Shown here: one piece after another, positions 5,044 through 5,875 of the stretch
Layout: each line of letters starts with the position of its first letter
Position numbering within the stretch: the stretch's first letter is position 1
Program-made: the position numbers and the translations under genes
Origin: Escherichia phage ime09
Length of the DNA: 64,000 bases
Reading direction: 5' to 3' (one strand)
Sequence record: NC_019503.1
Notes under the pieces: model-generated
Seen by the model: only the letters and a program-made list of their open reading frames with translations
Told to the model about the DNA's origin: nothing
Database searches by the model: none

Positions 5044-5119
5044 TGGTCGAGGCAGTAGGGATCGAACCTACGACCTAGGACTTAGAAGGTCCTTGCTCTT
5101 CCTTCTGAGCTATGCCTCG
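5044..5119 (-). tRNA. tRNA-Arg (anticodon TCT), CCA encoded
   Basis: Cloverleaf folded by hand: acceptor CGAGGCA/TGCCTCG, anticodon stem AGGAC/GTCCT, loop CTTCTAA, T-loop TTCGATC. Confidence 0.8.
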
Positions 5120-5123
5120 TATT

Positions 5124-5198
5124 TGGCGGACGTGATAGGATTCGAACCTATAACCAATCGCTTAACAGGCGATCGCTCTGCCATTGAGCTACACATCC
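5124..5198 (-). tRNA. tRNA-Asn (anticodon GTT)
   Basis: Acceptor GGATGTG/CACGTCC with one G-U pair, anticodon loop CTGTTAA, T-arm ATAGG TTCGAAT CCTAT, CCA encoded. Confidence 0.7.
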
Positions 5199-5202
5199 AA
5201 AT

Positions 5203-5289
5203 TGGTGGGGAGTGATGGAGTCGAACCACCCGAGTCGCAATGACAATGGATTTACAGTCCACACCGCTACCTCTACGGGATAACTCCCC
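5203..5289 (-). tRNA. tRNA-Tyr (anticodon GTA), class II with long variable arm
   Basis: Acceptor GGGGAGT/ACTCCCC, anticodon loop CTGTAAA, long variable arm, T-loop TTCGACT; resembles bacterial tRNA-Tyr. Confidence 0.7.
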
Positions 5290-5302
5290 TTAATTCTTAA
5301 TT

Positions 5303-5377
5303 TGGTGGCCCTGGGTGGAATTGAACCACCATCTGGCGATTATGAGTCGCTTGCTTGAACCTTCCAGCTACAGGGCC
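5303..5377 (-). tRNA. tRNA with anticodon CAT (Met, or Ile if lysidine-modified as assumed for T4 tRNA-Ile)
   Basis: Acceptor GGCCCTG/CAGGGCC, anticodon loop CTCATAA, T-arm GGTGG TTCAATT CCACC, CCA encoded. Confidence 0.65.
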
Positions 5378-5378
5378 T

Positions 5379-5454
5379 TGGTGCTGATTGACGGAATCGA
5401 ACCGCCGACCTTCTCATTACAAGTGAGTTGCTCTACCTACTGAGCTAAATCAGC
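5379..5454 (-). tRNA. tRNA-Thr (anticodon TGT)
   Basis: Acceptor GCTGATT/AATCAGC, D-stem GCTC/GAGC, anticodon loop CTTGTAA, T-arm GGCGG TTCGATT CCGTC. Confidence 0.8.
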
Positions 5455-5459
5455 AAAAC

Positions 5460-5549
5460 TGGCGGAGGCGATAGGATTTGAACCTATGAGTCGCCGGAGC
5501 GACTGCCGGTTTTCAAGACCGGTGCATTAAACCACTCTGCCACGCCTCC
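5460..5549 (-). tRNA. tRNA-Ser (anticodon TGA), class II
   Basis: Acceptor GGAGGCG/CGCCTCC, anticodon loop CTTGAAA, long variable arm, T-arm ATAGG TTCAAAT CCTAT. Confidence 0.8.
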
Positions 5550-5551
5550 AG

Positions 5552-5625
5552 TCTCCATACAAGGATTTGAACCTTGGACCTCCTGATCCCAAATCAGGCG
5601 CTCTACCAAACTGAGCTACACGGAG
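5552..5625 (-). tRNA. tRNA-Pro (anticodon TGG), CCA not encoded
   Basis: Acceptor CTCCGTG/TATGGAG, D-stem GCTC/GAGC, anticodon loop TTTGGGA, T-arm CAAGG TTCAAAT CCTTG. Confidence 0.75.
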
Positions 5626-5635
5626 TAAATTAAAT

Positions 5636-5709
5636 TGGAGCGGATAATGAGAATCGAACTCACATCATCAGATTGGAAGTCTGAGGTAATACCATTATAC
5701 GATATCCGC
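5636..5709 (-). tRNA. tRNA-Gly (anticodon TCC)
   Basis: Acceptor GCGGATA/TATCCGC, anticodon stem TCAGA/TCTGA, loop CTTCCAA, T-loop TTCGATT. Confidence 0.8.
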
Positions 5710-5714
5710 AAATT

Positions 5715-5801
5715 TGGTGCGAGAAGTGGGACTCGAACCCACAAGGAAATCATTCCGCAGCATTTTAAGTGCTGTGCCTTTACCAATTTGGCCATTCTCG
5801 C
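5715..5801 (-). tRNA. tRNA-Leu (anticodon TAA), class II
   Basis: Acceptor GCGAGAA/TTCTCGC, anticodon loop CTTAAAA, long variable arm, T-arm GTGGG TTCGAGT CCCAC; one nt from tRNA-Gln. Confidence 0.8.
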
Positions 5802-5802
5802 G

Positions 5803-5875
5803 CTGGGAATAAAGGACTCGAACCTTTGCATCCTGGAATCAAAATCCAGTGCCTTACCAACTTGGCTAATTCCCA
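5803..5875 (-). tRNA. tRNA-Gln (anticodon TTG), CCA not encoded
   Basis: Acceptor TGGGAAT/ATTCCCA, anticodon loop TTTTGAT, T-arm AAAGG TTCGAGT CCTTT; first gene of the array. Confidence 0.8.

What the first reader, a model, noticed from the sequence alone, without database searches (positions are those of the whole stretch)
5044..5875. Ten-gene tRNA array with Tyr and Asn tRNAs beyond the classical T4 set, near RNA ligase
Hand folding gives ten tightly packed minus-strand tRNAs in the order Gln, Leu, Gly, Pro, Ser, Thr, CAU (Met/Ile), Tyr, Asn, Arg, with spacers of 1-13 nt. T4 as I recall encodes eight (Gln, Leu, Gly, Pro, Ser, Thr, Ile, Arg). The additional Tyr(GUA) and Asn(GUU) genes sit between the CAU tRNA and Arg. 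Phage tRNAs may supplement codon usage or replace host tRNAs cut by anticodon nucleases; the window also encodes RNA ligase 2. Which anticodons are added may indicate which host tRNA-targeting defence this lineage meets.
Basis: partly seen in the sequence, partly recalled or inferred. Interest (0 to 1): 0.5.

Follow-up and report, generated by a model that had tools for sequence, protein, structure and literature searches.

The report
T2-type ten-tRNA array, already known
The ten tRNA genes are real, but this is the common, already described tRNA cluster of T2-like coliphages; phage T4 is the odd one out, because a selfish homing-endonuclease cassette (segB) sits where the Tyr and Asn genes are here.

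Summary
ARAGORN and Rfam both call ten minus-strand tRNA genes at 5044-5875: Gln, Leu, Gly, Pro, Ser, Thr, CAU, Tyr, Asn, Arg.

The window is a Tequatrovirus. The same array, about 99% identical, is in hundreds of deposited phage genomes, and was described for T2L, RB1 and RB3 in 2008. Tyr+Asn occur in 394 phage records. The T4 arrangement (segB plus a different Arg allele) occurs in 131.

T4 carries a different cassette rather than simply lacking two genes. Its Ile and Arg genes are only about 65-68% identical to the window's. The SegB homing endonuclease prefers a 27-bp site inside the T2-type Asn gene, and that site is present here.

CAU is an Ile2 (AUA) type tRNA. RNA ligase 2 is 35 kb away in ordinary T4 gene order, so it is not linked to the array.

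On function, Tyr and Asn are first and third among amino acids enriched over E. coli, and AAT has the largest excess demand of all codons. Published work shows Septu and retron-Eco7 deplete tRNA-Tyr, and PARIS cleaves tRNA-Asn as a secondary target. Both explanations are plausible.

Novelty: already known. Interest: low.

The parts
5802..5875 (-). tRNA-Gln (UUG). No CCA is encoded. Its anticodon arm differs from the T4/T2/T6 allele.
   Evidence: 67.4 bits. 65/73 identical to T4 with a fully compensated stem swap. Identical to AR1. The window allele is the majority: 289 records at >=99% against 127 at 80-90%.
5715..5801 (-). tRNA-Leu (UAA)
   Evidence: 64 bits. 86/87 identical to T4.
5636..5709 (-). 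tRNA-Gly (UCC)
   Evidence: 65.8 bits. 74/74 identical to T4.
5551..5625 (-). tRNA-Pro (UGG). No CCA is encoded.
   Evidence: 66.8 bits. 74/74 identical to T4. Junction sequence.
5460..5549 (-). tRNA-Ser (UGA). CCA is encoded here, unlike in T4.
   Evidence: 62.6 bits. 87/87 identical to T4 over the body. The 3' end is CCA here and TAA in T4.
5379..5454 (-). tRNA-Thr (UGU)
   Evidence: 72.9 bits. 73/76 identical to T4. Positions 36-41 read UAAUGA.
5303..5377 (-). tRNA with anticodon CAU. Most likely tRNA-Ile2, read as AUA after lysidine modification. This is the T2 allele, not the T4 allele.
   Evidence: 59.9 bits. 75/75 identical to T2 and 47/72 to T4 Ile. The best E. coli match is a PGAP-annotated tRNA-Ile(CAU): 62/75 identical, with an identical 19-nt anticodon arm and the same acceptor ends.
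5203..5289 (-). tRNA-Tyr (GUA), class II with a long variable arm and a weak D stem
   Evidence: 30.2 bits. 87/87 identical to AR1, 86/87 to T2, 85/87 to T6. Covariation.
5124..5198 (-). tRNA-Asn (GUU)
   Evidence: 74.1 bits, the best in the array. 75/75 identical to T2. Positions 36-41 read UAAGCG, against UAAUCC in E. coli asnT.
5122..5148 (-). 27-bp preferred SegB homing-endonuclease recognition site, GGTTCGAATCCTATCACGTCCGCCAAA. It runs from the T arm to the 3' end of tRNA-Asn plus 2 nt.
   Evidence: One search gives the sequence. It matches the published consensus GGTTCRANTCC...CCAR and has all five discriminating bases (G6, A16, G18, A26, A27) reported for the T2L Asn site (PMC2330249).
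5044..5119 (-). tRNA-Arg (UCU). This is the T2 allele, not the T4 allele.
   Evidence: 68.1 bits. 75/76 identical to T2 and 48/70 to T4 Arg.
4677..5027 (-). 116-aa ORF of unknown function between Arg and rnaD. It is absent from T4 at this position.
   Evidence: 112/117 identical to T2 EcT2_00138. Matches phrog_3355, unknown function, E 4.7e-55. No Pfam hit.
4562..4677 (-). rnaD homologue (T4 species 2 stable RNA)
   Evidence: 88% identical to T4 rnaD. T4 annotation.
4416..4554 (-). rnaC homologue (T4 species 1 stable RNA)
   Evidence: 98.6% identical to T4 rnaC over 139 nt.
4342..4365 (-). Terminator-like hairpin (10 bp, 7 G-C) followed by a T run. Probable end of the tRNA/stable-RNA transcription unit.
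   Evidence: This is a consensus match only.
40633..41634 (-). RnlB (RNA ligase 2). It is not part of the array and is listed only because the finding cites it.
   Evidence: tblastn with T4 RnlB: 98.8% identity over 334 aa. T4 has rnlB at 108.6 kb and the tRNAs at 71-72.5 kb.

Best explanation
This is the segB-free, T2-type allele of the Tequatrovirus tRNA gene cluster. Ten tRNA genes sit head to tail, followed by a small ORF, the stable RNAs rnaD and rnaC, and a terminator.

By analogy with T4 (not tested here), the array is transcribed as precursors. Host enzymes then process them: RNase P, 3' trimming, and CCA addition for Gln and Pro.

Eight of the tRNAs read A-ending codons that the AT-rich phage uses far more than E. 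coli does (UUA, GGA, CCA, UCA, ACA, AUA via lysidine, AGA, CAA). Tyr(GUA) and Asn(GUU) are the sole decoders for two of the three amino acids most enriched in the phage proteome. The primary role is therefore to raise tRNA supply where phage demand most exceeds host supply.

A secondary effect is to buffer translation when host tRNA-Tyr or tRNA-Asn is destroyed by tRNA-cleaving defences: Septu and retron-Eco7 for Tyr, PARIS for Asn.

Tyr and Asn look 'extra' only because T4, the reference, carries a foreign cassette (3' part of Ile, then segB, then Arg) in place of the stretch that here runs from the 3' part of the CAU gene through Tyr, Asn and Arg to the 116-aa ORF. The SegB endonuclease cuts preferentially inside this very Asn gene. 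In a mixed infection with a segB+ phage, this segment would therefore be converted to the T4 form.
For: Shown here:
- Ten tRNAs are called by two tools.
- The array is about 99% identical to many Tequatrovirus genomes annotated with the same tRNAs.
- CAU, Tyr, Asn and Arg are 75/75, 86/87, 75/75 and 75/76 identical to T2.
- T4 has segB in their place, with Ile and Arg alleles only 47/72 and 48/70 identical.
- Tyr+Asn occur in 394 records and the segB-Arg cassette in 131.
- Other Tevenvirinae genera also carry Tyr and Asn close together.
- The exact 27-bp SegB site is present in the Asn gene.
- The ten cognate codons all rank within the top 21 of 61 for excess demand (Mann-Whitney P = 1.2e-4). 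AAT ranks 1 and TAT ranks 6. Tyr is 1.62x and Asn 1.56x the E. coli share.

From the literature:
- T2L, RB1 and RB3 lack segB. The preferred SegB site lies in T2L tRNA-Asn. segB is inherited by 94% of T4 x T2L progeny, with loss of about 1250 bp of T2L DNA encoding Met, Tyr, Asn and Arg tRNAs and neighbouring ORFs (PMC2330249).
- T6 tRNA-Tyr weakens Septu immunity in a dose-dependent way, and T4, which lacks it, cannot escape (PMC13096335).
- E. coli tRNA-Asn(GUU) is a secondary AriB target (PMC12409363).
Against: - T4 and T6 do without Asn, and T4 also without Tyr, so neither gene is essential.
- The His tRNA that many relatives add at the same spot decodes the amino acid least enriched in the phage (0.51x). 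Demand therefore cannot explain every member of this hotspot.
- Lys has the second-highest enrichment but no phage tRNA here.
- The direction of change (loss in T4 rather than gain here) rests on counts in a biased database, on outgroup presence and on crossing experiments, not on a rooted phylogeny.
- No remnant of Asn was found beside segB in T4 or T6.
- The E. coli codon baseline is only 42 annotated genes, and the window gene set is heuristic.
- Expression and processing were not tested. Promoter-like matches are no more frequent than in shuffled sequence.
Confidence: 0.85

Rival explanations
1. One reading: Tyr and Asn were added in this lineage specifically to replace host tRNAs cut by tRNA-targeting defences. 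On this view, the identity of the added anticodons reports which defences the phage meets.
For: - Septu EcB88 cleaves host tRNA-Tyr, and extra T6 tRNA-Tyr (85/87 identical to the window's, with an identical variable arm) restores plating.
- Retron-Eco7 depletes tRNA-Tyr and is bypassed by the T5 tRNA-Tyr. T5-like phages share the window's variable arm. Retron-Eco7 does not restrict T6.
- PARIS AriB cleaves E. coli tRNA-Asn between positions 40 and 41 in U36-A-A-U-C|C41. The window's Asn reads UAAGCG, differing at positions 39 and 41. These are the same two positions whose change makes the T5 tRNA-Lys resistant.
- His, added in relatives, is not explained by demand.
Against: - The genes are widespread and probably ancestral, not a lineage-specific addition.
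- T6 tRNA-Tyr is itself cleaved by Septu and protects only when amplified or overexpressed.
- Asn is only a secondary AriB target. The primary target, Lys(UUU), has no phage copy here, and PARIS still restricts T4 and T6.
- Demand predicts these two genes equally well.
- RnlB is unlinked.
Confidence: 0.3
2. Tyr and Asn are near-neutral passengers. They persist here only because no homing endonuclease has yet replaced them, and they contribute nothing measurable to fitness.
For: - T4 lacks both and T6 lacks Asn.
- The cluster is a hotspot of endonuclease-driven turnover. T4 and T6 have segB, AR1 has an endonuclease gene in place of Pro, and T2 has an ORF in place of Thr.
- PMC2330249 describes the T4 tRNA region as not essential for phage development.
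Against: - The sequences are highly conserved: 249 records are >=99% identical over Tyr+Asn.
- Substitutions in Tyr keep base pairing.
- Homologous Tyr genes are kept in unrelated phage families.
- T6 lacking its tRNA region is more sensitive to Septu.
Confidence: 0.1
3. The Tyr call is a false positive or a decayed pseudo-tRNA, so the array really has nine functional genes.
For: The Rfam score is 30.2 bits, barely above the 29-bit threshold. The D stem has a pair that never forms. The free-energy fold does not form the D arm. T6 tRNA-Tyr is described as relatively unstable.
Against: - ARAGORN calls it.
- The acceptor, anticodon, variable and T stems pair in 97-100% of cells, with 5 compensatory pairs.
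- Both differences from T6 keep pairing (G-C to G-U and the reverse).
- The T6 gene is detected on northern blots and rescues infection.
Confidence: 0.03

Closest known systems
tRNA gene region of phages T2L, RB1 and RB3 (Brok-Volchanskaya et al. 2008, PMC2330249); T2 genome AP018813
   Same: No segB. The same CAU, Tyr, Asn and Arg alleles (75/75, 86/87, 75/75, 75/76 identical to T2). The same downstream 116-aa ORF (112/117). The same preferred SegB site in Asn.
   Different: The sequenced T2 (AP018813) has a 402-bp ORF where the window has Thr, so it has nine tRNAs. T2 also carries the T4-like Gln anticodon arm (66/74). Exact ten-gene matches include phages HZ_ZJUN4, BW-1, P8 and Sfk20.
Phage T4 tRNA cluster (AF158101): Gln, Leu, Gly, Pro, Ser, Thr, Ile, segB, Arg, rnaD, rnaC
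   Same: The same position, flanking genes (trna.2-4, e.8), order and strand. Leu, Gly, Pro, Ser and Thr are 96-100% identical. rnaC and rnaD are present.
   Different: T4 has segB instead of Tyr and Asn, different Ile and Arg alleles (about 65-68% identical), a different Gln anticodon arm, no encoded CCA on Ser, and no ORF between Arg and rnaD.
Phage T6 tRNA-rich region and its Septu-countering tRNA-Tyr (Chihara et al. 2026, PMC13096335)
   Same: tRNA-Tyr is 85/87 identical, with an identical variable arm that includes the C48 Septu cleavage position.
   Different: T6 has segB after Tyr, and lacks Asn, Pro and Ser. It carries the T4-type Ile and Arg. Without segB, the window phage lacks the amplification route that T6 used to escape Septu.
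T5-like phage tRNA region (tRNA-Tyr against retron-Eco7; tRNA-Lys/Thr/Asn against PARIS; PMC11555353, PMC12409363)
   Same: A homologous phage-type tRNA-Tyr with the same variable arm. The same principle of phage copies substituting for cleaved host tRNAs.
   Different: It belongs to an unrelated phage family, has a much larger tRNA set, and includes the Lys(UUU) that the window lacks.

Membership tests
Canonical tRNA (Rfam RF00005) | Cloverleaf scoring at or above the 29-bit gathering threshold, with an anticodon in a 7-nt loop | tested here: met
   All ten pass (30.2-74.1 bits), and ARAGORN calls all ten. Tyr is marginal but has covariation support.
T2-type (segB-free) Tequatrovirus tRNA cluster | Gene order Gln-Leu-Gly-Pro-Ser-Thr-CAU-Tyr-Asn-Arg, with no endonuclease gene inside the array | tested here: met
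   Spacers are 0-13 nt. tblastn with SegB, SegD, SegE, the AR1 endonuclease and the T2 ORF finds nothing in the window.
T2-type (segB-free) Tequatrovirus tRNA cluster | T2 alleles of CAU, Tyr, Asn and Arg, and the downstream ORF | tested here: met
   75/75, 86/87, 75/75 and 75/76 identical to T2. The ORF is 112/117 identical.
T2-type (segB-free) Tequatrovirus tRNA cluster | Preferred 27-bp SegB recognition site within tRNA-Asn (G6, A16, G18, A26, A27) | tested here: met
   The sequence GGTTCGAATCCTATCACGTCCGCCAAA lies at 5148..5122 on the minus strand and meets the criteria. Actual cleavage was not tested.
T2-type (segB-free) Tequatrovirus tRNA cluster | T4-like flanks (trna.2-4 upstream; rnaD, rnaC and e.8 downstream) | tested here: met
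   93-98% identity blocks to T4 on both sides. rnaC and rnaD are mapped.
tRNA-Ile2 (CAU anticodon modified to lysidine, reads AUA) | Closer to host tRNA-Ile(CAU) than to elongator or initiator tRNA-Met | tested here: met
   The best match in 5,424 E. coli genomes is annotated tRNA-Ile, 81.6% identical over the full length. A prophage copy has an identical 19-nt anticodon arm.
tRNA-Ile2 (CAU anticodon modified to lysidine, reads AUA) | TilS acceptor-stem determinants C4-G69 and C5-G68 (established knowledge, Ikeuchi et al. 2005, recalled from memory) | tested here: met
   The acceptor is GGCCCUG...CAGGGCC, so C4-G69 and C5-G68 are present (sequence).
tRNA-Ile2 (CAU anticodon modified to lysidine, reads AUA) | Lysidine at position 34 and charging with isoleucine | not testable with these tools
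   This needs mass spectrometry or an aminoacylation assay. PMC2330249 labels the T2L gene tRNA-Met.
Anti-defence phage tRNA (T6/T5-type tRNA-Tyr against Septu or retron-Eco7) | Sequence homology to the experimentally active tRNA-Tyr, including the variable arm | tested here: met
   85/87 identical to T6, with a variable arm identical to the T6, rV5-like and T5-like copies.
Anti-defence phage tRNA (T6/T5-type tRNA-Tyr against Septu or retron-Eco7) | Restores plating on hosts carrying the defence system | not testable with these tools
   This needs infection assays. In T6 the single-copy gene is insufficient against Septu.
AriB (PARIS)-resistant phage tRNA variant | Substitutions at or next to the 40|41 cleavage site relative to the host tRNA | tested here: met
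   Asn reads UAAGCG against E. coli asnT UAAUCC. Thr reads UAAUGA against host UAAUCA (sequence; host motif).
AriB (PARIS)-resistant phage tRNA variant | Demonstrated resistance to AriB cleavage | not testable with these tools
   This needs an in vitro cleavage assay. It has been shown only for T5 tRNA-Lys.

The most novel reading that the evidence does not exclude
The T2-type tRNA-Asn (G39 and G41 instead of the host's U39 and C41) and the T-even tRNA-Thr (G40 instead of C40) may be cleavage-resistant replacements for two of the three PARIS/AriB targets. Because the preferred SegB cut site lies inside that same Asn gene, the spread of the selfish segB cassette would delete an anti-defence tRNA. 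That would create a trade-off between endonuclease homing and immune evasion, and could explain why both array types persist in nature.
Probability: 0.2. Interest if true: 0.4.

Novelty: already known. Interest (0 to 1): 0.12.

Why it matters
It matters little as a discovery. The array, its relation to T4, the SegB site in Asn and the anti-Septu role of the T-even tRNA-Tyr are all published, and the same genes are annotated in hundreds of genomes.

The useful outcome is a correction of framing. T4 is an atypical reference for its own genus at this locus, with the minority Gln, Ile and Arg alleles and no Tyr or Asn. 'Beyond the T4 set' therefore should not be read as innovation.

The one testable idea left is whether the T2-type Asn and Thr tRNAs resist PARIS cleavage.

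Tried and rejected
1. Are T4 rnaC and rnaD decayed Tyr and Asn genes? Rejected. Identities are 40-52 matches over 71-86 aligned bases, the same as between unrelated tRNAs, and the window has its own rnaC and rnaD as well as Tyr and Asn.

2. Are there remnants of Asn or Tyr beside segB in T4 or T6 that would mark the insertion point? None were found. Local alignment scores were at background level.

3. An independent census in uncultivated viral contigs, using a 44-nt Gly tRNA pattern, returned only two loci: one T4-type with eight tRNAs and one truncated. This was too few to use, so the census relies on the deposited phage genomes.

4. The promoter scan found 9 promoter-like sites against 10.1 expected, so no promoter is claimed.

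5. Pfam gave no significant hit for the flanking ORFs, and PHROGs returned only families of unknown function.

6. Is there functional linkage with RNA ligase 2? Rejected. It is 35 kb away, in the same gene order as T4.

7. Is CAU an elongator or initiator Met tRNA? Considered and judged less likely than Ile2.
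Full report
**1. Observation**

ARAGORN finds ten tRNA genes in the whole 64-kb window.

Rfam's tRNA model independently hits all ten above its gathering score. Nine score 60-74 bits, with E-values of 1e-10 to 1e-14. Tyr scores 30.2 bits against a threshold of 29. Spacers are 0-13 nt.

**2. Is the marginal Tyr real?**

I aligned eight homologues from Tequatrovirus, Vequintavirus, a T5-like Tequintavirus and three other T4-like genera. On the cloverleaf, 92.7% of cells pair, against 46-61% when the partners are slid. 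Five pairs show changes on both sides, in the acceptor, anticodon and variable stems.

Only the D stem is poor. One pair never forms, which explains the low Rfam score and the failure of the free-energy fold to form that arm.

The T6 gene is 85/87 identical. Both differences keep pairing. That gene is detected on northern blots and rescues infection (PMC13096335). Tyr is therefore a genuine tRNA.

**3. What phage, and how common is the array?**

The 951-bp array region matches 889 phage records. In 397 of them a single place covers at least 80% of it. The best matches are 99.6% identical Tequatrovirus genomes (Escherichia, Shigella and Yersinia phages), many annotated with the same ten tRNAs.

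- The Tyr+Asn pair alone is present in 394 records, 249 of them at 99% identity or more.
- The T4 arrangement (segB plus the T4-type Arg) is present in 131 records.
- Many relatives have an eleventh gene, His GUG, between Asn and Arg. 216 records cover at least 80% of that segment, including other genera.

These counts include duplicate RefSeq/GenBank entries and a biased sample. Even so, they show that the ten-gene form is ordinary.

**4. Comparison with T4, T2 and T6**

T4 (AF158101) has Gln, Leu, Gly, Pro, Ser, Thr and Ile, then the GIY-YIG homing endonuclease gene segB, then Arg, rnaD and rnaC. The difference is larger than two genes, however.

- Leu, Gly, Pro, Ser and Thr are 96-100% identical to T4.
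- The window's CAU and Arg genes are only 47/72 and 48/70 identical to T4 Ile and Arg.
- Gln shares the acceptor, D and T arms with T4 but has a completely swapped, fully compensated anticodon arm.
- Against T2 (AP018813), CAU, Tyr, Asn and Arg are 75/75, 86/87, 75/75 and 75/76 identical. The 116-aa ORF after Arg is 112/117 identical.
- T6 has the T4-type Ile and Arg, keeps Tyr, and has segB after it.

The locus is a hotspot of cassette exchange. T2 has an ORF in place of Thr, and AR1 has an endonuclease gene in place of Pro. No SegB, SegD or SegE homologue, nor a homologue of the AR1 endonuclease or the T2 ORF, is found anywhere in the window.

**5. This is published**

Brok-Volchanskaya et al. 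2008 (PMC2330249) sequenced the tRNA regions of T2L, RB1 and RB3. They found no segB and, instead, Met(CAU), Tyr, Asn and Arg genes.

They mapped the preferred SegB site to 27 bp wholly inside T2L tRNA-Asn. The consensus is GGTTCRANTCC...CCAR, and the discriminating bases are G6, A16, G18, A26 and A27.

In T4 x T2L crosses, segB was inherited by 94% of progeny. About 1250 bp of T2L DNA encoding Met, Tyr, Asn and Arg tRNAs and neighbouring ORFs was almost completely excluded.

The window carries exactly that site, GGTTCGAATCCTATCACGTCCGCCAAA, at 5148..5122 on the minus strand, with all five discriminating bases.

The window is therefore a segB-free recipient allele. T4's eight-gene set is best read as the product of cassette replacement, not as a baseline to which this lineage added genes. 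Other Tevenvirinae genera also carry Tyr and Asn close together, with Lys between them, which supports ancestral presence. No rooted phylogeny was made, and I found no Asn remnant next to segB, so the direction of change remains an inference.

**6. The CAU gene**

Its best match across 5,424 E. coli genomes is annotated tRNA-Ile, 81.6% identical over the full length.

The copy I fetched lies downstream of a prophage Q antiterminator gene. It shares an identical 19-nt anticodon arm and the same acceptor ends.

The acceptor stem has C4-G69 and C5-G68. From memory of Ikeuchi et al. 2005, these are the TilS determinants that distinguish tRNA-Ile2 from tRNA-Met.

ATA codons are 5.5 times more frequent in the window than in the E. 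coli sample. I therefore read CAU as Ile2, as in T4, although the 2008 paper labels it Met. The modification itself cannot be tested here.

**7. RNA ligase**

T4 RnlB matches window 40633-41634 on the minus strand at 98.8% identity. That is 35 kb from the array, the same spacing as in T4. There is no special linkage.

**8. How it probably works**

*Transcription unit (inferred).* The array is followed by the 116-aa ORF (phrog_3355, unknown function), rnaD (4562-4677, 88% identical to T4), rnaC (4416-4554, 98.6%), and a strong terminator-like hairpin at 4365..4342. By analogy with T4 it is one transcription unit processed by host enzymes. Gln and Pro lack an encoded CCA. Promoter-like matches were no more frequent than in shuffles, so no promoter is claimed.

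*Demand.* I compared 68 long window ORFs (19,493 codons) with 42 annotated E. coli K-12 genes (14,748 codons).
- Tyr (1.62x), Lys (1.57x) and Asn (1.56x) are the three most enriched amino acids.
- AAT has the largest excess of all 61 codons (43.0 against 13.8 per thousand), and TAT ranks sixth.
- The ten cognate codons all rank within the top 21 (Mann-Whitney P = 1.2e-4).

This fits the classical supply explanation and extends it naturally to Tyr and Asn. It does not explain His in relatives (0.51x), nor the absence of a Lys tRNA.

*Defence.* The published record is as follows.
- Septu EcB88 cleaves E. coli and T6 tRNA-Tyr in the variable arm. Extra T6 tRNA-Tyr restores plating, deleting the T6 tRNA region increases sensitivity, and T4 cannot escape.
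- Retron-Eco7 depletes tRNA-Tyr and is bypassed by the T5 tRNA-Tyr. It does not restrict T6.
- PARIS AriB cleaves tRNA-Lys(UUU) and Thr(UGU), and less well Asn(GUU), between positions 40 and 41.

The window's Asn reads UAAGCG at positions 36-41, against UAAUCC in E. coli asnT. Its Thr reads UAAUGA, against the host's UAAUCA. These differences fall at or next to the cleavage site. Resistance is untested, and the main target, Lys, has no phage copy.

I conclude that supply is the primary role and defence buffering a real but secondary, dose-limited benefit. The sequence cannot separate the two.

**9. Verdict**

The feature is already known, and interest is low.

The residual novel possibility is that the T2-type Asn and Thr are AriB-resistant, so that segB homing deletes an anti-defence gene. 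I give this about 0.2 probability.

Noticed in passing
window 5802-5875 (-): tRNA-Gln has the same acceptor, D and T arms as the T4/T2/T6 allele. Its anticodon arm is entirely different and fully compensated (CUGGA-UUUUGAU-UCCAG against UAGCA-CUUUGAC-UGCUA), including loop positions 32 and 38. The window allele is the majority: 289 records at >=99% against 127 at 80-90%. An arm-only swap is the pattern expected under selection by an anticodon-arm nuclease, but no such nuclease for tRNA-Gln was identified.
   Followed up: partly
window 5460-5462 (3' end of tRNA-Ser): tRNA-Ser encodes its 3' CCA here (..CCTCCG-CCA-GTTTT). T4 has ..CCTCCG-TAATTTT and must have CCA added after transcription. Gln and Pro lack an encoded CCA in both phages.
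   Followed up: partly
window 3125-3688 and 3814-4287 (-): Two tandem paralogous ORFs (187 and 157 aa, both phrog_2280, unknown function) are inserted relative to T4 between e.8 and rnaC. The insertion is bounded by a repeated 33-nt segment at 3776-3808 and 4333-4365, which corresponds to the terminator hairpin after rnaC.
   Followed up: partly
window 4677-5027 (-): A 116-aa ORF (phrog_3355, no Pfam hit) lies between tRNA-Arg and rnaD. It is conserved in T2 and AR1 but absent from T4, where Arg abuts rnaD. Its stop codon abuts the start of rnaD.
   Followed up: partly
window 1-64000: tblastn at E <= 1e-3 finds no homologue of T4 SegB, SegD or SegE, of the AR1 endonuclease or of the T2 ORF. 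T4 carries segB, segD and segE in the corresponding stretch. For these elements, the window genome looks like an endonuclease-poor 'recipient'.
   Followed up: partly
window 5203-5289; loci L010 402-488, L011 401-487, L012 1201-1287: The same phage-type tRNA-Tyr is shared by unrelated phage families: Vequintavirus at 95.7%, T5-like Tequintavirus at about 85%, and T4-like phages of Klebsiella, Citrobacter and Enterobacter. The variable arm UGUCAUUGCGACUCG is identical in the T-even, rV5-like and T5-like copies. This suggests horizontal spread of one tRNA-Tyr gene among coliphages.
   Followed up: partly
L012 1201-2462, L013 1294-2464: T4-like phages of other genera carry Tyr-Lys-Asn together with Asp and His. 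That set includes all four GUN-anticodon (queuosine-family) tRNAs, which are the colicin E5 targets, plus the PrrC/PARIS target Lys. Their Asn genes are 85 nt long with a long extra arm and a host-like anticodon arm.
   Followed up: no
L009 301-376 (E. coli M19 prophage): The closest bacterial relative of the window's CAU tRNA is a prophage-borne tRNA-Ile(CAU) just downstream of a Q antiterminator gene. It has an identical 19-nt anticodon arm, which hints at exchange of this tRNA between lytic and temperate coliphages.
   Followed up: no
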